In this document: in pieces, positions 1,853 to 19,548 of the stretch
How the letters are laid out: each line of letters starts with the position of its first letter
Numbering within the stretch: the stretch's first letter is position 1
Assembly: GCF_000021865.1 (NCBI RefSeq)
Contig: NC_014034.1
Span: 2,370,001 to 2,402,000, forward strand
DNA length: 32,000 nt
Reading direction: 5' to 3'
Origin: Rhodobacter capsulatus SB 1003
GTDB taxonomy: Bacteria > Pseudomonadota > Alphaproteobacteria > Rhodobacterales > Rhodobacteraceae
The notes under the pieces: generated by a model
The model's input: the letters and a program-made list of their open reading frames with translations, nothing else
Told to the model about the DNA's origin: nothing
The model's database searches: none
Position numbers and translations under genes: made by a program

Positions 1853-1904
1853 CCCGGTCTCAGGGCCCGGTCTCAAGGCCCGGTTTCTGGGCCCGGCCTC
1901 AGGG
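1853..1904. repeat. Four tandem copies of a 13-nt unit (CCCGGTCTCAGGG and variants) filling the convergent gap
   Basis: Read directly: cccggtctcaggg / cccggtctcaagg / cccggtttctggg / cccggcctcaggg at 1853, 1866, 1879 and 1892. The last unit contains the response-regulator stop codon (1899-1901). Confidence 0.85.
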
Positions 1905-2951
1905 GCGGCTGGCGCGGCGGAATTCCGAGGGCGAGACGCCGACCTCTTTCTTGAACGCCTTGCAGAAATAATTCGCGTCCTGATAGGCCAGATCCAGCGC
2001 CACGTTCAGGATCGGCAGGCTCGATCCCGCCAGCAGATCCTTGGCCCGGGACATCCGGCGTTCCTTCACATAGGCGATGAAGGTCATGTCCATCTGCCGG
2101 TGAAACAGCCGGCTCAGATAGCAGGCGCTGACATGGGCCTGTTCGGCCGCCTCCTCCAGCGTCACCGTCTTGTGCAGGTTGCGCTCGATATAGTTGCGCA
2201 CCGTCTCGATCCGGGCCGCCGCCCCCGCGCCGGTCTCCTCGCCCGGATCGAAAAGCAGGTCGGTGATGTCGCCGAAGAGTTCCTGCAGCTTGTAGCTGTC
2301 GCGCGGATCAAGCCGCTGCGTCGCCAGCGCCTCGATCCGGCGGGCAAGCGGCGCGGGCAGGCTGCGGCCGCTGCGCGCGATCAGATCGGTCAGCAGCTGC
2401 GCCAGATCCAGCACCGCCTGCCGGGCGGGCCGGTCGCGCTGGCCGTGCAGCGTCTCGATCTGCCGCCGCACCAGCGCCAGACCGTCGCGATAGGCATGGG
2501 CGGCGACCATCCGGCCCAGCTCGGTGCGCAGATCGGGGGCGGCTTCGGGCAACGGAGGCTGTGGCACGGCCGCGACGGGCGCCGCGCTGCGCAGGCAATC
2601 GGTGACGGATTTCAGCAGCGCCTCGGTCCGCACCGGCTTGAGCAGAAAGCCGTCCGCGCGCAGCTGGATCGCCGCCTGCATGATCTCGAAATGATCATAG
2701 GCGGTGATGATCAGCACCTTGGTCGCCGCCGCGCGGTTGCGCAGAAACTCCAGGATTTCCAGCCCGTCCGGCCGCGGGATCCGGATGTCGAGCAGCATCA
2801 GGTCGATCTTGCGGCTTTCGATCAGACGCAAAGCCTCGGCGCCGTTCTTCGCCTCTCCGACCACGCTCACCTCGGGCAGGTTGCGCTCCAGGATCGTGCG
2901 CAGCGCCCGGCGTTCCAGTTCTTCATCCTCGACGATGGCAATATCGAACAT
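1899..2951 (-). CDS. Two-component response regulator, REC domain plus AraC-type HTH (YesN-like)
   Basis: ATG at 2949-2951 gives MFDIAIVEDEELERRAL...DLMLLDIRIPRPDG (receiver domain). The C-terminus is AraC HTH (VTLEEAAEQAHVSACYLSRLFHRQ...YQDANYFCKAFKKEVGVSPSEFR). The upstream extension of track ORF 1899..3311 is Arg/Pro-rich junk that overlaps the kinase gene. Confidence 0.9.
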   Translation of the reverse strand: MFDIAIVEDEELERRALRTILERNLPEVSVVGEAKNGAEALRLIESRKIDLMLLDIRIPRPDGLEILEFLRNRAAATKVLIITAYDHFEIMQAAIQLRADGFLLKPVRTEALLKSVTDCLRSAAPVAAVPQPPLPEAAPDLRTELGRMVAAHAYRDGLALVRRQIETLHGQRDRPARQAVLDLAQLLTDLIARSGRSLPAPLARRIEALATQRLDPRDSYKLQELFGDITDLLFDPGEETGAGAAARIETVRNYIERNLHKTVTLEEAAEQAHVSACYLSRLFHRQMDMTFIAYVKERRMSRAKDLLAGSSLPILNVALDLAYQDANYFCKAFKKEVGVSPSEFRRASRP

Positions 2952-2959
2952 CGGCGGCC

Positions 2960-4300
2960 TCAGAACGCGCAGGGGTCGAAATCGATCGGCAGCCGCAGCC
3001 GGACAAGGGTGCCGCGGCCCTGCCGGAACGGGCTGACGATCTCCAGCCCGTGGCTGTCGCCGAAATATTGCCGCATCCGGCTGTGGATGTTGTGCAGCCC
3101 GATGCTTTTGCGCCCGCCATGATCGGCCTCGCCGCGCAGCACGTCGTGACGGCGTTCGGCATTGATCCCGGGGCCGTTGTCGAGCACGTCGATGATCACG
3201 TCGCCCCCGTCGCGATAGAGCGAAATCTCGATCAGCCCGCCGCTTTCCATCGGCTCGATCGCATAGTTGATGCAGTTTTCCACTAGCGGATGCAGCACCA
3301 TGAAGGGGCACAGGACGCGGTCGAATTCCTCGGGCGCGTCAAGCGTGAAATCGAAGCGATCCCCCATCCGCAGCTTGAGCAGGTAAAGATAGTTGCGCAC
3401 GTGATCGATCTCGGTGCGCAGCGGCACGGATTGCGAGCCCGAGCGCTTGAGCAGATAGCGCATCATGTCGGCAAAGGCATGCACCGTGGTTTCCGTCTCG
3501 GGCGCGCCCTCGACCAGCGCCAGACGGCCGATGGTGTTGAGCACGTTGAACAGGAAATGCGGATTGACCTGATAGGAGAGCGCCTGCAGTTCCGCTTCGC
3601 GCAACAGCCGTTCCAGTTCGGCGCGGCGCTGCGATTCCTCGGCCAGACGCAGGTTTTTCGCGTAAAGCTCCTGCGTCACGCCCTGCGAATAGCTTTCCTC
3701 GACGATATGCGAGGCGATGGTGAAAAGCGAAAACGCCGCCGAGCGCAGCCGGTCGAAGCTGATCTCGCCGATCTGCGCATGCAGCGCCAAAAGCGCGGGA
3801 TCCTCGCTCCACGACCCCTCGGCGGGGAAGATGTTCGACAGATCGACGATGCGCGGATGCCCGCCCGGGGCGAGCTTCACCTGACCGCAGATCACCGCGC
3901 CCAGATATTCGCCGCGCAGATTGATCGGGGCGGCGAAATCGACCAGCTGGCAGTGACATTTGTAGATCGCGGGTTCCCCGGTGGAAAGCGCCGTGCGCCC
4001 GCCCACCGCATCGCAGTGAAAGCAGCGCTCGCGCCAGTCGGGGCGCGAGCGCACCGCCTGACAGAAGGGCGAGAACCCCGAGGGTTTCGTCACCGGCGCC
4101 CCCTCGGGATCGACGATGACCATCGCAACGCCGACGGCGGCGCTGAAATTGTCCTGCACCTTCTGCAGCATCTCGGTGCTCATCAGATCGACAAGCTTGC
4201 GCCGCCGCGCGGCCTTGAATTCCGTCGTCTCCGGCAGCGGACGAAAGCCCGGACCGGCCAGAACCTCCACGGACTGCCCGAAAGGCGTATTACTTCCCAT
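2960..4300 (-). CDS. Soluble sensor histidine kinase with N-terminal PocR-type ligand domain and YesM/LytS-type His_kinase + HATPase core
   Basis: Start chosen at ATG 4298-4300, preceded by GAGGGG. PocR-like segment: LQKVQDNFSAAVGVAMVIVDPEGAPVTKPSGFSPFCQ...CFHCD...YKCHCQLVDFAAPI. H-box region: YQVNPHFLFNVLNTI. ATPase motifs: DNGPGI, GLHNI. No hydrophobic TM segment seen. Its stop lies 8 nt before the regulator start. Confidence 0.85.
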   Translation of the reverse strand: MGSNTPFGQSVEVLAGPGFRPLPETTEFKAARRRKLVDLMSTEMLQKVQDNFSAAVGVAMVIVDPEGAPVTKPSGFSPFCQAVRSRPDWRERCFHCDAVGGRTALSTGEPAIYKCHCQLVDFAAPINLRGEYLGAVICGQVKLAPGGHPRIVDLSNIFPAEGSWSEDPALLALHAQIGEISFDRLRSAAFSLFTIASHIVEESYSQGVTQELYAKNLRLAEESQRRAELERLLREAELQALSYQVNPHFLFNVLNTIGRLALVEGAPETETTVHAFADMMRYLLKRSGSQSVPLRTEIDHVRNYLYLLKLRMGDRFDFTLDAPEEFDRVLCPFMVLHPLVENCINYAIEPMESGGLIEISLYRDGGDVIIDVLDNGPGINAERRHDVLRGEADHGGRKSIGLHNIHSRMRQYFGDSHGLEIVSPFRQGRGTLVRLRLPIDFDPCAF

Positions 4301-4383
4301 GCCAACCCCTCTGCATCGCGTGCGACGAAGACGGGCGGCCCTCCCCCGCGCCAATGAGAGCCCAGCCCGACGCTGGTCTCTGC

Positions 4384-4418: not shown

Positions 4419-4570
4419 CGGGCGGGGAAATGCCGACTCGCTCGTCGTTGCTGCCGAGCCTTAACGCAGTCGGGCGGGGGAAAACCTGATCTGGCGCAAA
4501 TCCCCCCGCCCTTCCCGGCATCGTGACAAGTTACCGCACCACAAGGATTTTTTCGCCTTTCGGTTGCATC

Positions 4571-5488
4571 TCAGCCACCGATCACGCAGCGCAGCCCCTC
4601 GGCTTCGACCAGCGTTTTCAAGGGCATCACCGCCTCGGGTTTCAGATCGGGCAGCGCCCCCATCGGACAGGTCCGGCCCAGCAGGCGATACTTGTTCTCG
4701 CCAAAGCTGTGATAGGGCAGCAGATGCACCGTATCGACGCCCGGCATCAGCTTGGCAAAGCGGGCAATCGCGGTGATCGCGGCGGGGCTGTCGTTCACCC
4801 CGGGCACCACCGGCACCCGCACCACCGCATGCGTCAGCGACGCCGCAATCAGCGCATTTTCCAGGATCAGCCGGTTGTCGACGCCGGTGTTTTGCTGATG
4901 CACCGCCGGGTCGATCGACTTCAGATCCATCAGCAGGTGATCGACATGCGGGATCACCTCGCGGATCACTTCGCGCGGGGCACAGCCCGTGGTTTCCATC
5001 GCGGTGTTCCAGCCCTGTTCGTGGCAGGCCATCAGCAGCTGTTTCGCAAAGGCCGCCTGCAACAGCGGCTCGCCGCCCGACAGCGTCACCCCCCCGCCCG
5101 AGCGGCGGTAGTGGATCGCATCCTTGCGCAGCTCCTGCATCACCTCGGCCACGCTCATCCTGCGGCCCGCGCGCTTGAGCGCCTCGGTCGGGCAAACCTT
5201 GGTGCAGTCGCCGCAGCGGATGCATTTTGCCCGGTCGACAAAGCCCGGATTGTCACGCGACAGCGCCCCCACCGGGCAGACCGGAATGCATTTGCCGCAG
5301 CCGATGCAGGCCGAGGCGCGGAAGAACAGATCCGGTTCGGTCGATTGCGATTCCGGGTTCGAACACCAGCGGCACGCCAGCGGGCAGCCCTTGAGGAAGA
5401 CGATGGTCCGCACCCCCGGCCCGTCATGGATCGAATAACGCTGGATGTCGAAGACCGTGCCTTCGGCGGTGAAATCGAGCTCGGACAT
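4571..5488 (-). CDS. Glycyl-radical-enzyme activating enzyme (radical SAM, with two ferredoxin-type cluster motifs)
   Basis: ATG 5486-5488 preceded by AAGGA. MSELDFTAEGTVFDIQRYSIHDGPGVRTIVFLKGCPLACRWCSNPE carries the CX3CX2C radical-SAM motif. CIGCGKCIPVCP and CIRCGDCTKVCP are the two ferredoxin-type motifs. The longer track ORF (to 5887) overlaps the upstream shell gene. Confidence 0.9.
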   Translation of the reverse strand: MSELDFTAEGTVFDIQRYSIHDGPGVRTIVFLKGCPLACRWCSNPESQSTEPDLFFRASACIGCGKCIPVCPVGALSRDNPGFVDRAKCIRCGDCTKVCPTEALKRAGRRMSVAEVMQELRKDAIHYRRSGGGVTLSGGEPLLQAAFAKQLLMACHEQGWNTAMETTGCAPREVIREVIPHVDHLLMDLKSIDPAVHQQNTGVDNRLILENALIAASLTHAVVRVPVVPGVNDSPAAITAIARFAKLMPGVDTVHLLPYHSFGENKYRLLGRTCPMGALPDLKPEAVMPLKTLVEAEGLRCVIGG

Positions 5489-5853: not shown

Positions 5854-7455
5854 TCAGCGCACGTTCAGCGCTTCGACCATCACGCATTTGCGGCGGCGGG
5901 CGAAGGAGCGGGCAGAGGTCAGCCCCTCGCCTGTCGGCCCGGCGATGGTGAAGGTGGCATAGCCCTCGCCGCCGACGCCAAGCCCGGCATAAGAGGGGCC
6001 GTTCTTCACGAAGATCGTGGTCTGGATGAGCTTCGCCATCTTCGTCAGCTTGCGCACATTGGTCGAATGCATGATCGCGGTATGGCGGTTGCCGTGTTCA
6101 AGAACGACCGCCAGATCAATGGCTTCGTCGACGCATGCCACGCGCACCAAAGGCAGGATCGGCATCATCAGCTCTTCGACGACAAAGGGGTGATCCTTGC
6201 CCGTCTCGATCAGGATGATCCGGGTTTCGGGCGCGGCTTTGACACCGATCTTGTCGAGCAACCAAACCGCCGATTTGCCGACGCAGCCCGTCTGCGGCCC
6301 GCCCTTTTCGGTCAGCACCAGTTTTTCCAGCGCGGCGATCTGCGCCGGATCGGTCAGCCGATGCGCGCCGTTGCGGACCAGCTCCGCGGTCAGGAAATCG
6401 GCGATTTCCGCCACCGCGATCAGCTCCTTTTCCGCCACGCAGGGCATGTTGTTGTCGAACGAACAGCCGTTGACGATATCCAGCGCCGCTTTCGGAATGT
6501 CGGCGGTTTCGTCAACCACCACCGGCGGATTGCCCGCCCCTGCCCCGATCGCCTTCTTGCCCGAGGACAGCACCGTCTTCACGATCGCCGGGCCGCCCGT
6601 CGCCACCAGCATCCGCACCTTGGGATGCGCCATCATCGCATTCGTGTTCTCGATCGAGGGCGCCTGCACGGTGACGACAAGGTTCGCCGGTGCCCCCAGC
6701 GCCGCCAGCTTGCGGTTGATCAGCTTGATCGCCAGCAGGCTGACGCCGCGCGCGCGCGGATGGGGGCTGAAGACCACCGCATTGCCCGCGGCCAACATCC
6801 CGATCGCGTTGCAGATGATGGTTTCGGTCGGGTTCGTCGTCGGCGTGATCGCCCCGATGACGCCATAGGCGGACAGCTCGACCAGCGTCAGCCCGTCATC
6901 GCCGCTTTGCGCTTCGGTGGTCAGGTCTTCGATGCCCGGGGTCTTTTCCGCCGCCAGCCGGTTCTTGATGATCTTGTGCGCGACATTGCCCATGCCGGTC
7001 TGTTCGACCGCCAGCCGCGAGATCCGCTCCAGCAGCGCGGGGTTCAGAAAGACCTCGCGGAGGCCGTCGATGAAGCGCTTGCGCGCCGACATCGAACAGA
7101 ACAGATATTGCCGCTGCGCCTCGGCGGCGGCCTCCACGGCCGCATCCATCGTGGCAAAGATGCCGTCGCCCACGGTTTCGGCCTGATCGTCGGGGATCGA
7201 CAGGCAATTTGCGGGCGCGGTGCAGCTGCCCGCCTTGCAGCAGGAACAGTTCTTCTCGCCCAACTCGCGCGTCAGGATGCCGCCGATGATGTCATCGATC
7301 GGATCGGCGGGCTTCGGGGCTTCCCGGACACAGCCCTGCGTGCCGGGTTTTGCCAGATCCGTCAGGGCCTTGGTCACCGTCGCCTCAAGGCTTTTCGGGG
7401 CGGTGTAGCCGCTCAAGACCCGGGCCACGGCGTCTTCGATATCGCTGTCTTTCAT
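5854..7455 (-). CDS. pduP: CoA-acylating aldehyde dehydrogenase (PduP/EutE family) with a ~95-aa N-terminal extension
   Basis: ATG 7453-7455 preceded by AAGGACAAGGA. The catalytic domain begins near GDGIFATMDAAVEAAAEAQRQY. It contains ...FDNNMPCVAEKE (catalytic Cys) and the GxGxG-like GAGAGNPP. The start overlaps the stop of the upstream gene (ATGA at 7452-7455). Confidence 0.88.
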   Translation of the reverse strand: MKDSDIEDAVARVLSGYTAPKSLEATVTKALTDLAKPGTQGCVREAPKPADPIDDIIGGILTRELGEKNCSCCKAGSCTAPANCLSIPDDQAETVGDGIFATMDAAVEAAAEAQRQYLFCSMSARKRFIDGLREVFLNPALLERISRLAVEQTGMGNVAHKIIKNRLAAEKTPGIEDLTTEAQSGDDGLTLVELSAYGVIGAITPTTNPTETIICNAIGMLAAGNAVVFSPHPRARGVSLLAIKLINRKLAALGAPANLVVTVQAPSIENTNAMMAHPKVRMLVATGGPAIVKTVLSSGKKAIGAGAGNPPVVVDETADIPKAALDIVNGCSFDNNMPCVAEKELIAVAEIADFLTAELVRNGAHRLTDPAQIAALEKLVLTEKGGPQTGCVGKSAVWLLDKIGVKAAPETRIILIETGKDHPFVVEELMMPILPLVRVACVDEAIDLAVVLEHGNRHTAIMHSTNVRKLTKMAKLIQTTIFVKNGPSYAGLGVGGEGYATFTIAGPTGEGLTSARSFARRRKCVMVEALNVR

Positions 7456-11006: not shown

Positions 11007-11816
11007 TCAGATGTAGGGTTTCGTGGAGGAGACGATTTCCGCGCCATCCAGCGTCGAAAGCACCTGTTTGCCGACCTCGCGCGCCGCGATGATCGCCTGC
11101 CGCACCGCCCCCGAGTCGCCGGTGAACATGAAGATCACCTCGTTCGAGTGGCTGGTGCCGCCATTGCCGGGCGAGGCATAGCCCACCGGCACCACGGTCG
11201 CGGCCTTGGCGGCGGTATCGGCCATCAGGACGCCGATGGCGGCGGGCGCCCCCACGGTGATCCCGAAGGCCTGGCCCAGCGGCGCCCCGAAGGCCTTGTG
11301 CAAAGCATGGCTGGCGCGGGCGGTGTATTGGAACTCGAGATGCCCCGCGGGCGTGCCATAGACATCGCCGAAGGTGCGGTTGAGTTCCGACAGCGTCACT
11401 TCCACCGCGCGGCGGGCGTCGGACACGTCCTCGGCCCCGAACAGGATCAGCGAGCCATGCCCGCCACCGCCCTCGGTGTCGCGCGGCAGTTCGATCAGCA
11501 CCACTTCGCTGTTCGTCGCCTTCACCGCCTCGTCGGCCGCGAAGATATGCGGACCGGCCCCGGTGCGGGCGCCGACGATGCCGATCGAGCGGTATTTCCG
11601 GTCGATGTTCATCTTTTCATGCAGCAGCGGATCGACATTCGCGATGACAAGACCCACCGTGTGGCCGATCGCCGTGCCGACGAATTCGGTCAGGTTGCAG
11701 GCCTTCGGCGCGGCTTTCGCAGCGGGCTTTTCGGCGGCGGCGGCGGCGGGGGCCTCGGTCGAGCCCATCTTCCGCATCACCTCGTCCATCAGTTTTTCGA
11801 CAAGATCGTCTTTCAT
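11007..11816 (-). CDS. pduB: Tandem-domain BMC-T shell protein, PduB-like
   Basis: [30 protein letters not shown] is the PduB signature. The product is 269 aa. The N-terminal helix is [14 protein letters not shown]. Strong AAGGAGA RBS. Confidence 0.88.
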
Positions 11817-12212: not shown

Positions 12213-13352
12213 TCATCCCCCGGCCCGATCGAGCAGCATTTCAAGATCTGCCAGCGCGGGACGGCGCGGATTGCCCGCGGTGCAGGCATCCGCAAAGGCG
12301 GCTGCCGCAAGGTCGGGGATCGCCCGACGATACTCCTCGATCGCGACGCCAAGGCCGCGCAGCGAGGAAGGGATGCCGAAGCGCGCATTCAGCGCCTCGA
12401 TCGCCCGGATCAGCGCAACGACACCCGCCCGCGTGCCCGGCACGTCAAGCCCCACCCGGGCGGCGATGCGGGCGTAGCGGCTGGCGGTCTCGCGGCAGCC
12501 GGGCGCGTCGTCCGACAGACCGGCGTTCCAGGCGATGACATGGGGCAAGAGCACCGCGTTGATGCGGCCATGCACCAGATGCAGCCGGCCGCCGATCGCA
12601 TGGGCCAGCCCGTGGTTGAGGCCCAGCCCCGCCTCGGTAAAGGCCATGCCCGCCAGGCACGAGGCCTGATGCATCGCATCGCGGGCGGCCAGATCGTTGC
12701 CGTTGTCGTAAGCCCGGGGCAGCGCCGCAAAGGCCAGTTCCAGCGCCTTTTCGGCAAAAGCGTCGGTGAAGTTCGAGGCGCCGCGCGCCACCACCGCCTC
12801 GATCGCATGGGTGATCACATCCATGCCGGTATCGGCGGTGACCCTGGGCGGTGCGGTGCGCACGAATTCCGGGTCAAGGATCGCCACATCGGGGATCAGG
12901 TCGTTGGAAATCAGCGGGAATTTCCGGTTGTTGGCAGGGTCCGAGATCACCGCGAAGGCGGTGACCTCGGAGCCGGTGCCGCTGGTCGTCGGGATCGCAA
13001 CCAGACGGATCGGATGGCTGGGGTCGATGCCGCGCACCACCGCCAGGATGGCTTTCGCCGCATCGATGGGCGAGCCGCCGCCCAGCGCCAGCACCACATC
13101 GGGGCGGAAGTCGGCGAACAGGCGGGCGCCTGCGGAAACGGTGGCGAGCGGCGGCTCGGGGATGGCTTCGGCGAAGATCTTGACGGTGCAGCCGTCCAGA
13201 TGCGCCAGAACGCGATCAAGCGGACCCGAGCGGGCCATGAATTCATCGGTCACGATGCCGACGCGCTGGCCGCGATAGGCCTGCAAGCGTTCCAGCAGCC
13301 CTTCGCCGAAGACGATTTCGGTCCGCGGAGAGAAACTATGATAGCGGGTCAT
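12213..13352 (-). CDS. pduQ: Iron-containing (group III) alcohol dehydrogenase, PduQ/EutG-like
   Basis: ATG 13350-13352. Family motifs seen: ALGGGSPIDAAKAI, PTTSGTGSEVT, and HAIEA...HGLAHAIGG metal-ligand histidines. The longer track ORF (to 13565) overlaps the GRE gene. Confidence 0.85.
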   Translation of the reverse strand: MTRYHSFSPRTEIVFGEGLLERLQAYRGQRVGIVTDEFMARSGPLDRVLAHLDGCTVKIFAEAIPEPPLATVSAGARLFADFRPDVVLALGGGSPIDAAKAILAVVRGIDPSHPIRLVAIPTTSGTGSEVTAFAVISDPANNRKFPLISNDLIPDVAILDPEFVRTAPPRVTADTGMDVITHAIEAVVARGASNFTDAFAEKALELAFAALPRAYDNGNDLAARDAMHQASCLAGMAFTEAGLGLNHGLAHAIGGRLHLVHGRINAVLLPHVIAWNAGLSDDAPGCRETASRYARIAARVGLDVPGTRAGVVALIRAIEALNARFGIPSSLRGLGVAIEEYRRAIPDLAAAAFADACTAGNPRRPALADLEMLLDRAGG

Positions 13353-13430: not shown

Positions 13431-13464
13431 AGGCTGGCCCCGCGTTGCCGCGGGACCGGCGGTG

Positions 13465-15987
13465 TCAGAAGGCCTGTTCGGTCCGGCTGATGATGTCGTC
13501 CTGCACCTCTTTCGCGAGGACGACGAACTGCGCCGAATAGCCCGCCACCCGCACCACGAGGTCACGATAGTCCTCGGGGTTTTTCTGTGCTTTCAGAAGG
13601 GTTTCGCGGTCGATCACGTTGAACTGCACATGCATGCCCTTGTGATCGAAGTAAGACCGCACCAGCGCGGCGAAGTTCTGCAACCCGGCGTCCCCTGCCA
13701 GAGCGGAGGGCAGGAATTTCTGGTTGTAGAGCGTGCCGTTCGAGGCGATGAAGTGGTCGAGTTTCGCCACCGAATTCGCCGCGGCGGTCGGGCCGAGCCG
13801 GTCCTTGCCCTGCCGCGGCGAGACGCCATCGGCCAGCGGCAGTTTCGCCGGGCGGCCGTCGGGCAGCGCGCCCACGTCCTTGCCGAAAAGCACGTTCGCC
13901 GAGACCGGATAGATCCCTGCCTGGAACTGGCCCCCGCGCGGGTTGGTGTATTTCTCCACTTCCTTGCAGTAGATCTGCGCGCATTTCCGGGCGATCAGGT
14001 CGACGTCGTCATTGTCGTTCCCGAAGGCTTCGGCGCTGTCGAGCAGGCGGCGGATGCCGTCATATTTCGACGAGGCGGCAGGCGCGGAGCCGGTCGAAAG
14101 CGTGCGATAGACCTCGTCCTTGAGCGCGGCGACATCCAGGCTGGCATTCGAGGCCAGCACTTTCTTGACCGCTTCGTAGATCTGGCTTTCGCTCATCTCG
14201 GCGGGCGCATTCGCCCCGGTGACCATCCCGAAGTTCGCGTCGAGCGCTTCCTTCAGTTCGGCCATCGTCAGCTTCTTGTCGTCCCAGACGAATTTCTTCA
14301 TCGCATAGACCGAGTCGCCGGTGTCGGCGACGCCGAAGGCCTGCGGGCCGGTGAAGTTGTAGATCGCGCCCCCTTCCTGCACCGACTTGCCGCGGCCCAT
14401 GCAGTCATCGACCATCGCCGAGAGGAACGGCAGCGGCGCCCGTTCGGCATGGGCGATGTCGACACAATTGTCGGCCTCGGCCAGGTATTTGACGAAGAAC
14501 GACATCTGCCCGGTGAAGGCGGCGTAGAAATCCTCAAGCGAGGTCCAGTCCTTGGCATCGCCGGTGACCGGGCCAAGCTGGGTATCGCCGACCTTGCCGT
14601 TGTTGAGCGTGATTTCCAGCACCTTCGCCACGTTGAAGAAGGCCGCGTCGTGCCAGCCCTCGGTGCGGTGGATCGCCTGCGGTTCGACGCAGCCGACGAT
14701 GCCGTAATCGCGGGCATCGGCCAGCGAAACACCGCGGTTTTGCAGCGAGGGGATGATCACCTCGTCGTTGTAGACGGCCGGAACCCCCAGCCCCAGACGC
14801 ACGACCTCGGCGGCACGGTGCAGGAATTCATCCGGCGTGCCCTGCCAGACCCGGATCGAGAAGGACGGCGCGGGCAGACGCACATGGGCCACGGCTTCCA
14901 TGCACATGTAGGACACGTCGTTCGTCGCATCGAGCCCGTCTTCGGTCTGACCGCCGACGCAGAGGTTCTGGAACACCGCATAGCCGGCAAAGGCTTGCGC
15001 CGAGACCTCGTCGCGGGTCTTGTTGACGTCGTTCAGCTTGATCCAGATGCAGTCGATCAGTTCCTGGGCAAATTCGCGGCTGATCGCGGTATCGGCTTTC
15101 AGGAACGGATACATGTATTGGTCGAAGCGGCCGGGCGAGATCGAATGGCCCGAGGATTCGATCTGCAGCATGCATTGTACGAACCACATCGTCTGGCAGG
15201 CTTCCCAGAAGGTCGTGGCGCCATGTTCGGGCACGCGGCGGCAGTTCTTGGCGATCTGCTCGAGTTCCGCCTTGCGGGTCGGGTTGGGGCAGGCCCGCGC
15301 CAGCTCCTCGGCCTTGTCGGCATAGCGGTTGGCAAAGCCGATCGCGGCGGTATAGGCGATGATGACGGCGGTGTAGAACTGCTGTTTCTTGATCGTGTCG
15401 GGGTCGCGTTCATCCAGCACTTCGCGGCGCTTGATCGCCTCGATGATGACACCGCGGAAGCCGGTTTTCAGGATCTTGCCATAGTCGACGCAGACATGGC
15501 CGACGCCGCCATAGAAATAGTTGCCCACCGTGAAGACGCCGTTGGCGATGCAATCCTTCGCCTTTTTCGACATGTAGGAGGCGGCAAGATCGGCGGTGGT
15601 GCGGCCGGGCCAGTATTTGAACGCCTCATGCAGGGCGGCGGCGGTTTCCTTGGGGATTTCGAACGGGTCGGCGACGCGGGTCGCCATGGTGTCGAATTCC
15701 TTTTCCACCCAGTCGAAGCTGAATTCGGGGCAGATCTCGGTCGAGCGCGGGTTGACGGTGATCGAGCCGACCACAAGTTCATCGTCGCGGATGGTGACCG
15801 GCAGTTCGGCGAAGATCTTTTCCACCACCCTGGCGCGGCGCAGGATCGGCGACAGGCCCTCGGTCACCTTGTAGGCCTCGGTGGCCAGCACGGCGCGCTC
15901 GGCCTCGACATGGGGCCGGGCATTCAGGATCTGGTTCTTCAGCCGCGTGATGCGGTCGGTCGGTTTGGTGAAGCCCTTCTCAATCAT
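13465..15987 (-). CDS. Glycyl radical enzyme of the dehydratase/lyase clade; probable B12-independent 1,2-propanediol dehydratase
   Basis: ATG 15985-15987 preceded by GGAGGA. Thiyl loop: IVGCVEPQ (single Cys followed by Glu). The C-terminal glycyl motif is VVRVAGYSAQF, with the Gly codon at 13540-13542. 840 aa. Confidence 0.9.
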   Translation of the reverse strand: MIEKGFTKPTDRITRLKNQILNARPHVEAERAVLATEAYKVTEGLSPILRRARVVEKIFAELPVTIRDDELVVGSITVNPRSTEICPEFSFDWVEKEFDTMATRVADPFEIPKETAAALHEAFKYWPGRTTADLAASYMSKKAKDCIANGVFTVGNYFYGGVGHVCVDYGKILKTGFRGVIIEAIKRREVLDERDPDTIKKQQFYTAVIIAYTAAIGFANRYADKAEELARACPNPTRKAELEQIAKNCRRVPEHGATTFWEACQTMWFVQCMLQIESSGHSISPGRFDQYMYPFLKADTAISREFAQELIDCIWIKLNDVNKTRDEVSAQAFAGYAVFQNLCVGGQTEDGLDATNDVSYMCMEAVAHVRLPAPSFSIRVWQGTPDEFLHRAAEVVRLGLGVPAVYNDEVIIPSLQNRGVSLADARDYGIVGCVEPQAIHRTEGWHDAAFFNVAKVLEITLNNGKVGDTQLGPVTGDAKDWTSLEDFYAAFTGQMSFFVKYLAEADNCVDIAHAERAPLPFLSAMVDDCMGRGKSVQEGGAIYNFTGPQAFGVADTGDSVYAMKKFVWDDKKLTMAELKEALDANFGMVTGANAPAEMSESQIYEAVKKVLASNASLDVAALKDEVYRTLSTGSAPAASSKYDGIRRLLDSAEAFGNDNDDVDLIARKCAQIYCKEVEKYTNPRGGQFQAGIYPVSANVLFGKDVGALPDGRPAKLPLADGVSPRQGKDRLGPTAAANSVAKLDHFIASNGTLYNQKFLPSALAGDAGLQNFAALVRSYFDHKGMHVQFNVIDRETLLKAQKNPEDYRDLVVRVAGYSAQFVVLAKEVQDDIISRTEQAF

Positions 15988-16045
15988 TCTATCCTCCAGG
16001 CGGTGGAGGCGTCCCGGCGGGGTCTGGTCCCGCCGGAAAGCCATG

Positions 16046-16636
16046 TCAGTTCAGGATGTCGGGGTCGATGAGCGAAACGAACGCGCGCATCAGTGTCGGA
16101 TGCCCGGGCCAGGCCGGTGCGGTCGCAAGATTGCCGTCGATCACGGTTTGCTCCGGCGCGGTTGCGACGAAGTGGGCCCCTGCCGCCGTCACTTCCGGTT
16201 CGACGGCCGGATAGGCCGTCAACCGACGTCCGCGCACCACGTCGGCGGCGGTCAGGAGCTGCGCGCCATGGCAGATCGCGGCCACAGGCCGGTTCTCCGT
16301 CATGAAGGCCCGCACGATGGCCAGGACCTGCGCATCCAGTCGCAGGTATTCGCAGGCACGGCCACCGGCGAGATAGAGACCGGCATGATCCTCGGGGCTG
16401 ACACTGGCAAAGCTTGCCGTCAGACCGAACAGATGGCCGGGTTTTTCCGAATAGGTCTGATCGCCCTCGAAATCATGGATCGCGGTGCGGATCGTTTCGC
16501 CCTTGCGCTTGCCCGGGCAGACGGTCTCGACGGTGAAACCCAGCATGCTCAGCGCCTGAAACGGCACCATCACTTCATAATCTTCAGAGTAATCTCCAAC
16601 GATCATCAGGATTTTGTTTTGGCGGGGGCGTTTCAT
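16046..16636 (-). CDS. DJ-1/PfpI-family protein (class-I glutamine-amidotransferase-like fold); first gene of the BMC operon
   Basis: ATG 16634-16636 preceded by AGGAAA. KILMIVGDYSEDYEVMVPFQAL...AAICHGAQLL is the nucleophile-elbow Cys-His signature of PfpI/YhbO-type proteins. 196 aa. Confidence 0.85.
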   Translation of the reverse strand: MKRPRQNKILMIVGDYSEDYEVMVPFQALSMLGFTVETVCPGKRKGETIRTAIHDFEGDQTYSEKPGHLFGLTASFASVSPEDHAGLYLAGGRACEYLRLDAQVLAIVRAFMTENRPVAAICHGAQLLTAADVVRGRRLTAYPAVEPEVTAAGAHFVATAPEQTVIDGNLATAPAWPGHPTLMRAFVSLIDPDILN

Positions 16637-16698
16637 CTGATTTTCCTGGGCTGCCGTTTTCGGCGTCTGGCAAAGGAATAGTCCCGGAAAGCCAAAAG

Positions 16699-16720
16699 GG
16701 TCAACGCGAGCCCCTTGACC
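16699..16720. promoter_or_regulatory. Everted-repeat element GGTCAA-N10-TTGACC (copy A), proximal to the BMC operon
   Basis: Read directly. Its reverse complement matches copy B (17020-17041) at 19/22 positions, including a perfect 14-mer (16698-16711 versus 17029-17042). On the minus strand, TTGACC-N18-TATTCC would place a start site about 30 nt upstream of the DJ-1 ATG. Confidence 0.45.
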
Positions 16721-16788
16721 ACAAAGGGGAATATCTTGCCCTGCGCTTTTGCGCCGTGGTTTTTCCCTGAAAATACGGGGATTTTGCC

Positions 16789-16802
16789 GATCCGGCCGGA
16801 TC
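16789..16802. promoter_or_regulatory. Perfect 14-bp palindrome GATCCGGCCGGATC
   Basis: Read directly in the divergent intergenic region. Confidence 0.3.
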
Positions 16803-16814
16803 TTGCAAAGCGGA

Positions 16815-16868
16815 CCCGGGACAAGAAAAGACAGATGCCGGGTGTTTTCTTGTCCTTGCCCGGACAAG
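16815..16868. promoter_or_regulatory. Three-arm GGACAAG / CTTGTCC repeat cluster (operator, or alternative-pairing leader RNA)
   Basis: ggacaagaaaa (16819-16829) pairs with ttttcttgtcc (16845-16855). cttgtcc (16849-16855) also pairs with ggacaag (16862-16868) across a 6-nt spacer. The middle arm can therefore pair with either neighbour. Confidence 0.4.
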
Positions 16869-17019
16869 TCCCGACTGCCGCCCGCGCGGCCCTGACAGGC
16901 GGAAACCGCGCAAAAGTGCCGTCCCGGCCCGCAGGCAAATCATTTTTCCATTTTAATACAGACACTTGCACAGGAAAGCGACTCGGCCGCACGGCGCATC
17001 GCAAGAAACTACCCGCGAA

Positions 17020-17041
17020 GGCCAAGCCGCTCGCGTTGACC
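17020..17041. promoter_or_regulatory. Everted-repeat element GGCCAA-N10-TTGACC (copy B) overlapping a candidate -35 for the membrane-protein/ackA unit
   Basis: TTGACC (17036-17041), then an 18-nt spacer, then TAATTT (17060-17065) is a plausible sigma-70-type promoter on the + strand. The element is the inverted copy of 16699-16720. Confidence 0.4.
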
Positions 17042-17125
17042 CGAAAGCCCCCGCAGCGGTAATTTCAGCACCAATCGACCGCCCGCGTCGGAAGGAAACC
17101 CGCGCCACTCCAAAGGGAATTCGCG

Positions 17126-17148
17126 CATCGGAAAGGGATTTTCCGATG
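17126..17148. promoter_or_regulatory. Perfect 9-5-9 palindrome CATCGGAAA-gggat-TTTCCGATG
   Basis: Read directly, 130 nt upstream of the membrane-protein ATG. It contains one of four AAAGGGAAT-like boxes (16672, 16723, 17112, 17132). Confidence 0.4.
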
Positions 17149-17277
17149 CCCTGTTTTCGCACGCGCCTTTTCCGCGCCCGGTCGTTTTCGCGGTCCTCCG
17201 GCCGCGCCCTTTCAAACCGCATCAAGACCCCGGACATACTCCAGTCGGATCCGCCCGGAATATACAAGGAGACCAGA

Positions 17278-18189
17278 ATGACACTGCTTGGTTTGCTCGT
17301 CGCTTTTGGCGGCGGAATATTCGGGGCCGCGATCGGCGCGCTGCCCGCCTTCGCCTTTGTCGGCTTCCTGACGATGATCGGCGTCGCGATCCAGCTTGCG
17401 CTTGGCGCGGGCACGACCGATTTCTTCGGCATCCCCTTTGGCGCCTTTGGCCCGCATGCGGGCGGCTTTGCGGCGGGGGTCGCCGCGGCGGCCTATGCGG
17501 CGAAAAAGGGCAAGCTTGACTCGGGGCGCAACATCGTCACCGCGGGCATGGGGCTGAACGCGCCCGACGTGCTTTTGGTGGGCGGCATCTTCGGGCTGAT
17601 CGGCTATCTGATCTTCTGGGCGCTGCAGCTGGTGCCGTCCTTCGGCCCGGGCCTGGCCTTTTCCGACCTGCCCGCCGTCGGCGTGGTGATCTCGGCCTTC
17701 CTCGCACGCTTCCTGTGGGGCACCTGCGGCTTTTGCGGCAAGGCCGATCCGGGCCGCGGCTTCTTTCACCCGACCGATGCGACGAAATGGCTGGTGTTCC
17801 AGTCAAGCCCGGCGCAGATCGCGGTGATCGGTCTGGGCGGCGGCTTGCTTGGCGCCTGGCTGGGCGTGACCCATGGCGTGCCGGGCGCGCTGCTGGCCTT
17901 CGGCATCGCGGCCTCCTCGCTCTTCTTCCTGACGCTGGGCGTGCTGATCCCGGTCACCCACCACATCATGCTGCCGGCCGCGCTGGCCGGTGTGGCTTCG
18001 GGCTCGGTGATCTGGGGCGCGGTGGTCGGCATCCTCTCGGCCTTCCTCGGCGAGTTCTTTGCCCGCGCCTTCCTGTGCCACGGCGACACCCATGTCGATC
18101 CGCCCGCCTGCGCCATCGCCGTGATGACCTTTGCCATCAACCTTCTGACCGCGGTGGGCTTCTGGACACTCGCTCCTCTGCCGGTCTGA
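17278..18189 (+). CDS. Uncharacterised polytopic membrane protein (303 aa, Gly/Ala-rich TM helices, internal repeat)
   Basis: ATG 17278 preceded by AAGGAGA at a 7-nt spacing. The sequence is hydrophobic throughout, with about 8-9 predicted helices by eye. No MIP NPA motifs. The track ORF start at 16966 lies in the intergenic region. Confidence 0.8.
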   Translation: MTLLGLLVAFGGGIFGAAIGALPAFAFVGFLTMIGVAIQLALGAGTTDFFGIPFGAFGPHAGGFAAGVAAAAYAAKKGKLDSGRNIVTAGMGLNAPDVLLVGGIFGLIGYLIFWALQLVPSFGPGLAFSDLPAVGVVISAFLARFLWGTCGFCGKADPGRGFFHPTDATKWLVFQSSPAQIAVIGLGGGLLGAWLGVTHGVPGALLAFGIAASSLFFLTLGVLIPVTHHIMLPAALAGVASGSVIWGAVVGILSAFLGEFFARAFLCHGDTHVDPPACAIAVMTFAINLLTAVGFWTLAPLPV

Positions 18190-18222
18190 TCCGGGGGCGG
18201 CCCCTTTCCCCTCCCCCGCAGC

Positions 18223-18252
18223 GGCGGTGCGACATCCCCCCGTCGCACCGCC
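18223..18252 (+). terminator. Perfect 11-bp hairpin followed by GATTT, between the membrane-protein gene and ackA (attenuator or partial terminator)
   Basis: ggcggtgcgac (18223-18233) / gtcgcaccgcc (18242-18252), with loop atcccccc. A second GC hairpin, ggcagcccc/ggggctgcc, lies at 18261-18280. Confidence 0.4.
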
Positions 18253-18303
18253 GATTTCCCGGCAGCCCCCCGGGGCTGCCCTTGCATCCAAGGACAACCG
18301 ACC

Positions 18304-19548
18304 ATGATCCTGACCATCAATTGCGGCAGCTCCAGCCTGAAATATCAACTCCATGCCCCCGATCTGAGCCATGTGATCGCCTCGGGCCTGATCGCCCGCA
18401 TCGGCGAGCCCGAGGGCACGACCGATCACTGGGTCGGCCACCGCGGCGAGCATCACCGCCGCGCCATCCCCGATCACCGCGCCGCCTTCGCGCTGATGAT
18501 GGAGAACCTGACGAACCCCGAATATGACGTGATCGAATGCCCGGGCGCGATCACCGCCATCGGACACCGCGCGGTGCATGGCGGGGCGATCTTCTTCGGC
18601 TCGGTGCTGGTCGATGACGCGGTGATGGCGGCGCTGCGCGCCTGCGCGACCTTTGCGCCGCTGCACAATCCCTGCAACATCATCGGCATCGAGGAAGCGC
18701 AGCGGATGTTCCCCGGCGTGCCGAATGTCGTCGTCTTCGACACCGCCTTTCACCAGACCATTCCCGAACGCGCCCATGCCTATGCCCTGCCCTATGAGCT
18801 GACGCAGAAACACGGCATCCGCCGCTACGGTTTTCACGGCACCTCCTGCCGCTATGTCTCGCGCAGCGCGGCCGAGCTGCTGAACCGCCCGCTGGACAGC
18901 CTGTCGATGGTGGTCTGCCATCTGGGCAACGGCGTCACGCTCGACGCGGTCAAGGGCGGGCAGTCGATCGACACCTCGATCGGGTTCGGCACTTTTGGCG
19001 GCGTGCCGATGGGCACCCGCAGCGGCGATTTCGACCCGGCGATCATCTTCCATCTGGTGCGCGAGGCCGGGCTGAGCCTGACCGAGATCGAGGATATCTG
19101 CTACACCAAAAGCGGCCTGCTGGGCCTGTCGGGGCTGTCGAACGACATGCGCGAAGTGATGGCGGCGGCCGATGCGGGCAATGACCGCTGCCAGCTGGCG
19201 ATTGACGTCTTCGTCTATCAGATCCGCAAGACGATCGGCGCCTATGCGGCGGCGATGGGCGGGATCGACGCGCTCGTCTTCACCGCGGGCATCGGCGAGA
19301 ACAGCGCCCGGGTGCGCGCGATGATCTGCGAGGATCTGGGCTTTCTGGGCATCTCGATCGACGCGCGGGCGAATGCGATCGCGCGCGGCGGCCATCCGAA
19401 CATCAGCGCGGCGGGCGCAAGGGTGGCGACGCTTGTGGTGCCGACGGACGAGGAACGGATGATCGCGATCGACACCGCGGCTTTGACGGCCGCCGCCTCG
19501 GCGAGGCAGCCGGGGCAAGACCTGGCCTTCGCGCTGGCCGCCCAATGA
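18304..19548 (+). CDS. ackA: Acetate/propionate kinase
   Basis: MILTINCGSSSLKYQL..., GHRAVHGG, RYGFHGTS and FTAGIGEN are canonical AckA motifs. 414 aa. AAGGA RBS. Confidence 0.92.
   Translation: MILTINCGSSSLKYQLHAPDLSHVIASGLIARIGEPEGTTDHWVGHRGEHHRRAIPDHRAAFALMMENLTNPEYDVIECPGAITAIGHRAVHGGAIFFGSVLVDDAVMAALRACATFAPLHNPCNIIGIEEAQRMFPGVPNVVVFDTAFHQTIPERAHAYALPYELTQKHGIRRYGFHGTSCRYVSRSAAELLNRPLDSLSMVVCHLGNGVTLDAVKGGQSIDTSIGFGTFGGVPMGTRSGDFDPAIIFHLVREAGLSLTEIEDICYTKSGLLGLSGLSNDMREVMAAADAGNDRCQLAIDVFVYQIRKTIGAYAAAMGGIDALVFTAGIGENSARVRAMICEDLGFLGISIDARANAIARGGHPNISAAGARVATLVVPTDEERMIAIDTAALTAAASARQPGQDLAFALAAQ

What the first reader, a model, noticed from the sequence alone, without database searches (positions are those of the whole stretch)
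16698..17042. A 22-bp everted-repeat element (GGTCAA-N10-TTGACC) occurs twice, in opposite orientation, facing each divergent transcription unit
- Copy A is at 16699-16720 (GGTCAACGCGAGCCCCTTGACC).
- Copy B is at 17020-17041 (GGCCAAGCCGCTCGCGTTGACC).
- The two are reverse-complement copies matching at 19/22 positions, including a perfect 14-mer (GGGTCAACGCGAGC / GCTCGCGTTGACCC).
- In each copy the outward-facing TTGACC sits 18 nt from a TA-rich hexamer. These hexamers are TATTCC toward the DJ-1/GRE operon and TAATTT toward the membrane-protein/ackA unit.
- The element therefore overlaps the candidate -35 of both promoters.

This looks like a shared cis element that co-regulates the organelle operon and its transport/ATP-harvesting arm. 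It could be the site of the adjacent AraC-type response regulator, since class II activators overlap -35, or the site of another dimeric regulator.
Basis: seen in the sequence. Interest (0 to 1): 0.65.

Follow-up and report, generated by a model that had tools for sequence, protein, structure and literature searches.

The report
Shared activator site at two microcompartment promoters
The repeated 22-base element is real and is the promoter-side half of a roughly 44-base regulatory site, conserved across many bacteria, that probably lets one propanediol-sensing regulator switch on a bacterial microcompartment operon and its divergent transporter/acetate-kinase unit together; this is a well-supported but ordinary kind of gene switch.

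Summary
**Observation:** confirmed. Copies at 16699-16720 and 17020-17041 match 19/22 as reverse complements and share an exact 14-mer. None of 300 shuffles of the intergenic region reached either value.

**What it is:** each 22-mer is the proximal half of a ~44-bp bipartite site (A 16697-16740 minus strand, B 17000-17043 plus strand).
- Two G.CAAG boxes lie exactly 21 bp apart as direct repeats.
- The second box abuts TTGACC, and a TA...T hexamer follows 18 nt later.
- The "everted" look comes from box-2 GTCAA plus the -35 TTGAC.

**Conservation:**
- Both sites hold the same positions in 11 GRM3 loci of Rhodobacterales, Hyphomicrobiales and metagenomes. Rhodospirillum rubrum, Cohaesibacter and, weakly, Roseospira carry it on the DJ-1 side.
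- A leave-one-out matrix ranks them first and second in each two-armed locus (24-57 bits; next best 13 or less).
- In Rhodopseudomonas palustris BisB18 the motif follows the relocated DUF7973 and ackA genes.

**Likely binder (inferred):** the locus's REC-AraC response regulator, partner of the PocR-domain kinase, acting as a class II activator. Its orthologues sit on the same contigs, and in one metagenomic locus directly upstream of the motif. No binding or start-site data exist.

**Verdict:** a new, well-defined member of a known kind, of moderate interest.

The parts
16697..16740 (-). Site A. This is the full bipartite site facing the DJ-1/GRE microcompartment operon: GGCAAGATATTCCCC-TTTGT-GGTCAAGGGGCTCGCG-TTGACC. 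Box A1 is 16740-16726, box A2 is 16720-16705, and the -35-like TTGACC is 16704-16699.
   Evidence: A matrix built only from other species scores it 52.1 bits, the best hit in the 32-kb window. It holds the same position (box 1 lies 100-126 nt before the DJ-1 ATG) in 14 loci.
17000..17043 (+). Site B. This is the full bipartite site facing the DUF7973 membrane protein/ackA unit: CGCAAGAAACTACCC-GCGAA-GGCCAAGCCGCTCGCG-TTGACC. Box B1 is 17000-17014, box B2 is 17020-17035, and the -35-like TTGACC is 17036-17041.
   Evidence: It scores 49.3 bits, the second-best hit in the window, against 12.8 for the third. It is conserved in 11 loci, with box 1 269-318 nt before the DUF7973 ATG in ten of them; the R. 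aestuarii figure (386) was taken from an over-long extract and is not comparable. In four metagenomic loci it was found independently of the pattern used to fetch them.
16675..16680 (-). -10-like hexamer TATTCC of the inferred DJ-1/GRE promoter, 18 nt after TTGACC. The inferred start is near 16668, giving a leader of about 32 nt.
   Evidence: A TA...T hexamer sits at the same 18-nt spacing in 12 of the 14 loci; Aliiruegeria and Cohaesibacter are offset. The simple sigma-70 scan did not call it. The start site is not mapped.
17060..17065 (+). -10-like hexamer TAATTT of the inferred DUF7973/ackA promoter, 18 nt after TTGACC. The inferred start is near 17072, giving a leader of about 206 nt.
   Evidence: It is invariant as TAATTT among the four Rhodobacter sequences. 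TA is at the same spacing in 10 of 11 loci. The start site is not mapped.
16819..16855 (.). Central element. It is an inverted pair of box-1-like half-sites, GGACAAGAAAAGAC...GTGTTTTCTTGTCC (GACAAG-N22/23-CTTGTC). It lies about 100 bp from site A and about 150 bp from site B, and is a candidate auxiliary operator.
   Evidence: The inverted repeat has 14-nt arms at 93%. It is conserved in sequence and position in all 11 loci with the divergent arrangement and is absent in R. rubrum, which lacks the divergent arm. In the window its half-site scores only 7.3 bits.
1902..2951 (-). Candidate binder. This is a response regulator of 350 aa with a receiver domain and an AraC-type double helix-turn-helix.
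   Evidence: Pfam finds Response_reg, HTH_18 and HTH_AraC. The start was set from the translation. Orthologues lie on the same contigs as the motif-bearing loci. The HTH regions are the most conserved part of the protein.
2960..4354 (-). Partner sensor kinase with a PocR sensory domain. The coordinates give the maximal ORF; the true start is probably about 40 codons later.
   Evidence: Pfam finds PocR, His_kinase and HATPase_c.
16046..16636 (-). DJ-1/PfpI gene, the first gene of the microcompartment operon controlled from site A. It is followed by the glycyl radical enzyme at 13465-16044.
   Evidence: Pfam. The gene order is the same in all orthologous loci.
17278..19548 (+). DUF7973 membrane protein (17278-18189) and acetate/propionate kinase (18304-19548), the unit controlled from site B.
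   Evidence: Pfam and precomputed family marks. In R. palustris BisB18 both genes are relocated and each has its own copy of the motif.

Best explanation
**What it is.** The two 22-mers are the promoter-proximal halves of two copies of a ~44-bp activator site. One copy sits at each of two divergent sigma-70-type promoters of a GRM3 glycyl-radical microcompartment locus.

**Anatomy of each copy.**
- Two half-sites of the form G-N-CAAG-N4-T-N2-C are arranged as direct repeats exactly 21 bp (two helical turns) apart.
- The distal box reads G.CAAG..(A/T)TTACCC.
- The proximal box reads G(T/C)CAAG....TC.CG and runs straight into TTGACC (-35).
- A TA...T -10 hexamer follows 18 nt later.

**Proposed mechanism (inferred, not shown).**
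- The PocR-domain histidine kinase senses 1,2-propanediol or a related small alcohol and phosphorylates the REC-AraC response regulator.
- A regulator dimer occupies the two boxes, one double-HTH domain per box.
- From the box that abuts -35 it recruits RNA polymerase as a class II activator.
- This switches on the organelle operon (DJ-1, GRE, shell and other genes) and the DUF7973/acetate-kinase unit together.
- The central inverted pair of box-1-like half-sites (16819-16855) is probably an auxiliary operator that couples or tunes the two promoters.

**The everted symmetry.** GGTCAA-N10-TTGACC is a by-product of box-2 GTCAA lying next to the -35 TTGAC.
For: **Shown.**
- The locus is GRM3-type and carries a PocR kinase and a REC-AraC regulator.
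- Both sites are conserved in sequence, orientation and distance to the start codons in 11 loci from Rhodobacter (4), Rhodovulum, Aliiruegeria, Rhodobium, Breoghania and 3 metagenomic relatives. The DJ-1-side site is also present in R. rubrum and Cohaesibacter, and weakly in Roseospira. The rest of the intergenic DNA is not alignable between orders.
- The CAA-to-CAA spacing is 21 bp in every site.
- The -35 to -10 spacer is 18 nt in 12 of 14 DJ-1-side sites and 10 of 11 DUF7973-side sites.
- Leave-one-out matrix scans of whole loci put the two sites first and second in each of the ten training loci and the window that carry both arms and a strong DJ-1-side site (24-57 bits; third hit 13 or less). 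DJ-1 loci without a microcompartment give nothing above 0 bits.
- In the window the scores are 52.1 and 49.3 bits, against 12.8 for the next hit.
- A metagenome scan with a strict pattern returned 19 hits. Four are GRM3 loci, and their second site was then found independently. One is a locus where the motif lies directly downstream of a PocR kinase and a REC-AraC regulator 47% identical to the window's.
- Regulator orthologues lie on the same contigs as the motif-bearing DJ-1 genes.
- The regulator's two HTH regions are its most conserved parts.
- In R. palustris BisB18 ackA and DUF7973 have moved. The two best matrix hits in 21 kb lie upstream of exactly those two genes, at 33.8 and 19.1 bits, with the next at -3.7.
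- In Budvicia (regulator 34% identical) two near-identical segments upstream of the two shell-gene operons keep the G.CAA-N18-G.CAA phasing with a different second recognition element.

**From the literature.**
- A homologous regulator of Acetobacterium woodii binds its pdu promoter in gel shifts (PMC7593272).
- Salmonella PocR needs two boxes upstream of -35, the proximal one 9 bp from it (PMC11264322).
- GRM3 loci typically carry a two-component pair (PMC4207490).

**From my own memory, paper not held.** Schindel et al. 2019 (J Bacteriol 201:e00343-18) reported that the R. capsulatus cluster is induced by 1,2-propanediol and depends on the downstream two-component system.
Against: - No binding, footprint or start-site data were available. 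The link to the response regulator rests on co-occurrence and architecture only.
- The simple sigma-70 scan calls no promoter here. The window's TATTCC lacks the usual final T, and TAATTT is a weak -10.
- A near-consensus, highly conserved TTGACC is unusual for an activator-dependent promoter. It could mean that TTGAC is read by the regulator rather than by sigma, or that the promoters have basal activity.
- The two boxes share only about 8 positions, so the direct-repeat reading depends mainly on G.CAAG and the fixed 21-bp phasing.
- The central element scores poorly in the window itself, at 7.3 bits.
- The Cohaesibacter and Roseospira DJ-1-side sites score low, at 3.3 and 1.8 bits.
- RegA strongly represses the orthologous cluster in R. 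capsulatus (PMC5359404), so at least one other regulator acts on it, directly or not.
Confidence: 0.7

Rival explanations
1. The conserved site is bound by a different transcription factor, not the locus's response regulator. One version is a symmetric dimer reading the everted GTCAA-N10-TTGAC. Another is a global regulator such as IHF, RegA or an FNR/CRP-type protein.
For: - Box 2 plus the -35 is quasi-palindromic in most species.
- Box 1 (TCAA-N4-TTA) resembles the IHF core WATCAANNNNTTR. This comparison rests on my own knowledge of that consensus.
- RegA represses the orthologous cluster 76- to 250-fold in R. capsulatus (PMC5359404).
Against: - Box 1 has no mirror half, so symmetry does not explain the conserved distal 20 bp.
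- The most conserved box-1 bases (ACCC) lie outside the IHF core.
- No FNR, CRP or sigma-54 boxes are conserved in these regions.
- In the text passages I searched, the RegA paper mentions this cluster only in its RNA-seq results and not among the ChIP-seq passages; Table 2 was not read in full.
- In every locus scanned the motif occurs only in front of GRM3 genes, and it travels with the two-component system.
Confidence: 0.17
2. The elements are just strong core promoter parts (-35 TTGACC plus upstream UP-like sequence) that are similar because both promoters need to be strong. No dedicated regulator site is involved.
For: TTGACC-N18-TA...T is close to the alphaproteobacterial sigma-70 consensus (CTTGAC-N17-CTATAT; my own knowledge). 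It is the most conserved part of the site.
Against: - Conservation extends 40 bp upstream of -35, with G/C-rich specific positions (G.CAAG, TTACCC) in 21-bp phase. This is unlike A/T-rich UP elements.
- The same half-site recurs in a central inverted pair.
- The matrix finds no other such promoter in 32 kb of the window or in 8-21 kb of each related locus.
Confidence: 0.08
3. The pair is a chance or recently duplicated repeat, such as a small mobile or REP-like element, with no regulatory role.
For: The perfect 14-mer shared by the two copies is specific to this lineage. In relatives the two copies differ at those positions, so some of the within-window identity may be chance or gene conversion.
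Against: - None of 300 shuffles reach the observed similarity.
- The sites are conserved at fixed positions across three orders of Alphaproteobacteria.
- There are no further copies in the window.
Confidence: 0.02

Closest known systems
Class II promoters of AraC/XylS-family activators (AraC I1-I2 at araBAD, XylS at Pm, RhaS, MelR)
   Same: - Two half-sites of about 17 bp are arranged as direct repeats about 21 bp apart.
- The proximal half-site abuts or overlaps the -35 hexamer.
- Each half-site is long enough for one double-HTH domain.
- An additional upstream site lies about 100 bp away, reminiscent of the AraC O sites.

The architecture of those systems is from my own knowledge.
   Different: - The DNA-binding domain here is fused to a phosphorylatable receiver domain, not to a ligand-binding or dimerisation domain.
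- The signal therefore arrives by phosphotransfer from a separate PocR-domain kinase.
- One regulator appears to serve two divergent promoters about 320 bp apart.
- The -35 here is near consensus.
Salmonella PocR boxes at Pcob and Ppdu (1,2-propanediol regulon)
   Same: - The physiological signal and pathway type are the same: 1,2-propanediol and a microcompartment.
- The sensor has a PocR sensory domain and the output is an AraC-type DNA-binding domain.
- Two binding boxes upstream of -35 are both required. The long proximal box (48 bp) lies 9 bp from -35, and a distal box lies 52-215 bp upstream (PMC11264322).
   Different: - PocR is a single polypeptide. Here the PocR domain sits on a kinase and the AraC domain on a response regulator.
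Acetobacterium woodii pdu two-component system (Awo_c25930 kinase and Awo_c25920 regulator)
   Same: - It is the same kind of kinase/regulator pair next to a 1,2-propanediol microcompartment cluster.
- The purified regulator shifts the pduA upstream fragment and its own promoter fragment (PMC7593272).
   Different: - It is a B12-dependent Pdu locus in a Firmicute.
- No binding motif was defined there.
- No autoregulatory site is evident upstream of the kinase gene in this window. The best half-site in 4354-4571 scores 7.9 bits.
GRM3 locus of Rhodobacter capsulatus SB1003 (rcc_02199-rcc_02213)
   Same: - The locus is orthologous; the regulator is 84% identical.
- The cluster is strongly regulated (PMC5359404).
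- It was reported to depend on the downstream two-component system (Schindel et al. 2019; from memory, paper not held).
   Different: As far as I could check, no operator sequence or start sites have been published for it. The window is a related but distinct organism.

Membership tests
Class II AraC/XylS-type activator site | Two half-sites as direct repeats about 21 bp (two helical turns) apart | tested here: met
   The CAA-to-CAA distance is exactly 21 bp in all 25 aligned sites from 14 loci. It is also 21 bp in the BisB18 and Budvicia sites.
Class II AraC/XylS-type activator site | Promoter-proximal half-site abuts or overlaps the -35 hexamer of a sigma-70 promoter | tested here: inconclusive
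   Box 2 runs directly into a conserved TTGACC, with a TA...T hexamer 18 nt downstream in most loci. The start sites are not mapped, and the consensus scan calls no promoter.
Class II AraC/XylS-type activator site | A cognate AraC-family protein with two HTH motifs is present | tested here: met
   HTH_18 and HTH_AraC are found in the 350-aa regulator at 1902-2951. Orthologues are on the same contigs as the sites. The HTH regions are highly conserved.
Class II AraC/XylS-type activator site | The protein binds the site and activation depends on it | not testable with these tools
   This needs EMSA or footprinting and promoter mutagenesis. The only indirect support is gel-shift data for a homologue (PMC7593272).
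Symmetric (everted or inverted) repeat operator for a homodimeric regulator | Two-fold symmetry accounts for the conserved positions | tested here: not met
   Symmetry is limited to GTCAA/TTGAC of the proximal half. The equally conserved distal box (G.CAAG..TTACCC) has no mirror partner.
FNR/FixK or CRP boxes; sigma-54 promoter | TTGAT-N4-ATCAA, TGTGA-N6-TCACA or TGGCAC-N5-TTGC at a conserved position | tested here: not met
   No positionally conserved matches with up to 2 mismatches were found in the intergenic regions of the 14 GRM3 loci or of the Telmatospirillum control.
GRM3 glycyl-radical-enzyme microcompartment locus | GRE and activase, BMC shell genes, PduL, aldehyde and alcohol dehydrogenases, DJ-1-type peptidase, acetate kinase, PocR-type two-component pair | tested here: met
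   All were found by Pfam in the window. The composition matches the GRM3 description in PMC4207490.
Known structured RNA (riboswitch or leader) in the intergenic region | Match to an Rfam family, or folding better than shuffles | tested here: not met
   There is no Rfam match below E = 0.1. The leader 17072-17290 has a z-score of +0.44.

The most novel reading that the evidence does not exclude
The three operators (site A, the central inverted pair, site B) could form a phosphorylation-controlled DNA loop or switch. In it, one AraC-type response regulator bridges two divergent class II promoters, as in AraC looping but driven by a kinase. The invariant TTGAC would then be read by the regulator's second HTH rather than by sigma region 4. 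That would make this a distinct way of coupling an organelle operon to its transport and ATP-harvesting arm.
Probability: 0.15. Interest if true: 0.55.

Novelty: new member of a known kind. Interest (0 to 1): 0.38.

Why it matters
- Regulation of glycyl-radical microcompartments is poorly defined. For the PocR-kinase/AraC-regulator pairs found next to many Pdu, GRM and Eut loci, no DNA motif had been described in any source I could read.
- A precise, conserved 44-bp site with assigned boxes, -35 and -10 gives an immediately testable operator for footprinting and mutagenesis.
- It also gives a matrix for finding regulon members in genomes. That matrix already shows that DUF7973 and acetate kinase belong to the regulon even when they are unlinked.
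- It offers a compact propanediol-responsive promoter part for engineering synthetic microcompartments.
- It does not change any concept of how bacterial activators work.

Tried and rejected
- **Plasmid collection.** There was no GRM3-type DJ-1 (all hits under 60% identity).
- **Papers not held.** These were Schindel 2019 (PMC6379579), Zarzycki 2015 (PMC4644659) and Rondon & Escalante-Semerena 1996 (PMC177925). I therefore could not check whether start sites or PocR box sequences are published.
- **Riboswitch or attenuator in the ~206-nt DUF7973 leader.** There is no Rfam hit and no excess folding. Only a local terminator-like hairpin remains.
- **FNR, CRP and sigma-54 boxes.** None is conserved.
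- **Autoregulatory site upstream of the kinase gene.** No convincing site was found.
- **Third matrix hit inside the aldehyde dehydrogenase gene (6158-6201, 12.8 bits).** It is not conserved in R. aestuarii and is treated as chance.
- **The repeat finder.** It did not list the A/B pair among its 25 longest inverted repeats, so the pair was verified by script instead.
Full report
**1. Setting**

The window is 67% G+C and carries a GRM3-type glycyl-radical-enzyme microcompartment locus.

Genes on the minus strand:
- DJ-1/PfpI (16636-16046)
- the glycyl radical enzyme (16044-13465)
- an iron alcohol dehydrogenase
- three BMC shell genes
- PduL
- a EutJ-like protein
- a DUF336/HbpS-like protein
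- an aldehyde dehydrogenase
- the GRE activase (5887-4571)
- a histidine kinase with a PocR sensory domain (4354-2960)
- a response regulator with a receiver domain and an AraC-type double HTH (2951-1902)

Two genes lie divergently on the plus strand: a DUF7973 membrane protein (17278-18189) and an acetate kinase (18304-19548).

The finding lies in the 641-bp region between the two transcription units.

The closest named relatives are Rhodobacter species. The DJ-1 protein is 87% identical to those of R. maris and TJ_12, and the regulator is 84% identical to that of R. capsulatus.

**2. The observation**

As reverse complements they match 19/22 and share an exact 14-mer.

In 300 dinucleotide-preserving shuffles of the intergenic region, the best inverted 22-mer reached 17/22 and the longest exact inverted word was 13. 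The pair is therefore not a chance match.

Each outward TTGACC is followed after exactly 18 nt by TATTCC (minus strand, 16680-16675) or TAATTT (plus strand, 17060-17065).

The similarity between the two copies continues upstream of the 22-mer, to 31/44, or 35/49 with five further bases.

**3. What comparison with other genomes shows**

I fetched orthologous loci through the DJ-1 protein. The set comprises:
- R. maris, Rhodobacter sp. TJ_12 and R. aestuarii
- Rhodovulum kholense and Aliiruegeria haliotis
- Rhodobium orientis and Breoghania
- three unnamed metagenomic relatives
- Rhodospirillum rubrum, Cohaesibacter and Roseospira

Eleven of these share the divergent DUF7973 <- 640-730 bp -> DJ-1 arrangement.

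Among the four Rhodobacter sequences the intergenic region aligns, and both copies stand out as conserved islands together with TATTCC and TAATTT. Between orders the region is not alignable.

A trivial search for two CAA triplets 21 bp apart nevertheless picks out one site on each strand in every locus. Aligned, the 25 sites give this consensus:

g.CAAg..atTaCCc-N6-G.CAAg.c..TC.cgTTGacc-N18-TA..tT

Three points follow.
- The two halves share G-N-CAAG-N4-T-N2-C and are direct repeats two helical turns apart.
- The distal half has no mirror partner. The everted look of the 22-mer is therefore explained by box-2 GTCAA lying next to the TTGAC of the -35.

Positions are also conserved. On the DJ-1 side, box 1 lies 100-126 nt before the ATG. 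On the DUF7973 side it lies 269-318 nt before the ATG in ten of the eleven loci; the R. aestuarii value (386) comes from an extract that ran past the start codon and is not comparable. This implies leaders of about 30 nt and about 200-260 nt.

**4. Specificity**

A position weight matrix built from the other species' sites scores the window's two sites at 52.1 and 49.3 bits. The next best of about 64,000 positions scores 12.8.

The same leave-one-out test was run on each locus.
- In each of the ten training loci and the window that carry both arms and a strong DJ-1-side site, the two intergenic sites rank first and second (24-57 bits). The third hit never exceeds 13 bits.
- Cohaesibacter scores 22.3 bits on the DUF7973 side but only 3.3 on the DJ-1 side.
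- The Roseospira DJ-1-side site scores 1.8 bits and ranks second in its locus.
- DJ-1 loci without a microcompartment give nothing above 0 bits.

A strict pattern was scanned over the metagenome collection and gave 19 hits.
- Fourteen hits (nine distinct sequences) carry none of the four GRM3 marker genes tested on the retrieved DNA. That number is about what my rough estimate of chance matches for this pattern predicts.
- Four are GRM3 loci. Their DUF7973-side site, which the pattern did not require, was then found by the matrix at 48-49 bits.
- One (L109) has the motif plus TTGACC-N18-TATTTC immediately downstream of a PocR kinase and a REC-AraC regulator that is 47% identical to the window's.

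**5. Natural rearrangements**

In Rhodopseudomonas palustris BisB18 the arm is rearranged. The ackA gene follows the regulator gene, and DUF7973 lies further on, on the other strand.

The two best matrix hits in that 21-kb locus are upstream of DUF7973 (33.8 bits) and upstream of ackA (19.1 bits). The next hit scores -3.7. The motif therefore follows the genes when they move.

R. rubrum lacks the adjacent arm. It keeps the DJ-1-side site and has no central element.

In Budvicia aquatica (a gammaproteobacterium, regulator 34% identical) two near-identical segments sit upstream of the two shell-gene-led operons. They keep G.CAA-N18-G.CAA but have TCTCC in place of TTACCC, and no TTGACC. This is what a diverged orthologous regulator/operator pair would look like.

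**6. The candidate binder**

Regulator orthologues at 45-92% identity occur in the same species as the motif-bearing loci. This holds for R. maris, TJ_12, R. aestuarii, Rhodobium, Aliiruegeria, Roseospira and two metagenomic contigs.

The two HTH regions (ISPCYLSRLF and QDANYFCKAFKKEVG) are the most conserved parts of the protein. This fits a conserved DNA target.

An AraC-type domain contacts two adjacent major grooves over about 17-20 bp (my own knowledge of MarA and Rob structures). Each box offers two conserved patches about 10 bp apart: G.CAAG with TTACCC, and G.CAAG with TC.CG.

From the literature:
- A homologous regulator of A. woodii binds its pdu promoter in gel shifts (PMC7593272).
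- Salmonella PocR needs a long box next to -35 plus a distal box (PMC11264322).
- GRM3 loci typically carry a two-component pair (PMC4207490).

I recall that Schindel et al. 2019 showed dependence of the R. capsulatus cluster on this two-component system. That paper is not held, so this rests on memory.

**7. The central element**

The inverted repeat at 16819-16855 consists of two box-1-like half-sites pointing toward each other (GACAAG-N22/23-CTTGTC).

It is conserved in sequence and position in all 11 divergent loci, about 105-114 bp upstream of box A1. In Rhodobium and Breoghania it contains two or three strong box-1 copies.

In the window its half-site is weak, at 7.3 bits. I read it as an auxiliary operator for the same protein. 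This is an inference.

**8. Alternatives examined**

- No FNR/FixK, CRP or sigma-54 boxes are conserved.
- There is no Rfam family, and no excess RNA folding in the long DUF7973 leader.
- In the passages I searched, the RegA paper mentions this cluster only in its RNA-seq results, although RegA represses the R. capsulatus cluster strongly. The effect may be indirect.
- A resemblance of box 1 to the IHF core exists but does not cover the most conserved bases.
- A pure core-promoter reading does not explain 40 bp of phased, G/C-containing conservation upstream of -35, nor the central copies.

**9. Weak points**

- Nothing here shows binding or start sites.
- The simple sigma-70 scan calls no promoter.
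- The near-consensus, invariant TTGACC is atypical for activator-dependent promoters.
- The two boxes share few bases beyond G.CAAG.

I put 0.7 on the full statement (site plus this regulator plus class II activation). I put about 0.9 on the narrower claim that this is a conserved, GRM3-specific regulatory site at both promoters.

**10. Verdict**

It is a new, well-defined member of a known kind, the class II AraC-type operator. It is useful for microcompartment biology and engineering, but not conceptually surprising.

Noticed in passing
window 17072-17277 (hairpin 17125-17149): The DUF7973/ackA unit has an inferred leader of about 206 nt, and the length is similar (about 200-260 nt) in all 11 loci. 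It begins with a conserved GATCGA(C/A) at about +2 to +8. It contains a terminator-like hairpin, GCATCGGAAA-N5-TTTCCGATGC, followed by TTTT. This hairpin is conserved as CGGAAA-N5-TTTCCG in 3 of 4 Rhodobacter sequences. The leader has no Rfam match and does not fold better than shuffles.
   Followed up: partly
L111 (R. palustris BisB18, CP000301.1) 11149-11192 (+) and 14191-14234 (-): The ackA and DUF7973 genes are relocated relative to the window, and each has its own copy of the bipartite motif upstream. An extra inverted box-1-like half-site lies at 14280-14296.
   Followed up: yes
L110 (Budvicia aquatica) 976-1019 and 12407-12450: Two near-identical ~55-bp segments lie upstream of two BMC-H-led operons in a gammaproteobacterial GRM3 locus. 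They keep the 21-bp G.CAA phasing but have a different second recognition element and no TTGACC.
   Followed up: partly
L109 152-190 (-): In this metagenomic locus the motif and promoter lie directly downstream of the PocR kinase and REC-AraC regulator genes. The downstream target gene is cut off by the end of the retrieved stretch.
   Followed up: partly
window 6158-6201 (-): This is the third-best match to the full-site matrix (12.8 bits, with a good box 1, GGCAAGGATCACCCC). It lies inside the aldehyde dehydrogenase gene, about 270 bp upstream of the GRE activase start. It is not conserved in R. aestuarii and is probably chance.
   Followed up: partly
window 13462-16071 (+) and other long antisense ORFs: Many long ORFs run antisense to real genes, for example 869 aa opposite the GRE. 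They have high first-position and lower third-position G+C, which is the usual high-GC artefact, so they are not genes.
   Followed up: yes
window 4354-4571: The 216-bp gap between the GRE activase and the PocR kinase gene has no convincing copy of the motif. The best half-site scores 7.9 bits. Autoregulation from a dedicated site, as reported for A. woodii, is therefore not evident here.
   Followed up: partly
L090 (Rhodospirillum rubrum) 3462-4000: The R. rubrum GRM3 operon keeps the DJ-1-side site (24.6 bits). It lacks the divergent DUF7973/ackA arm and the central inverted element, and unrelated genes lie upstream.
   Followed up: partly
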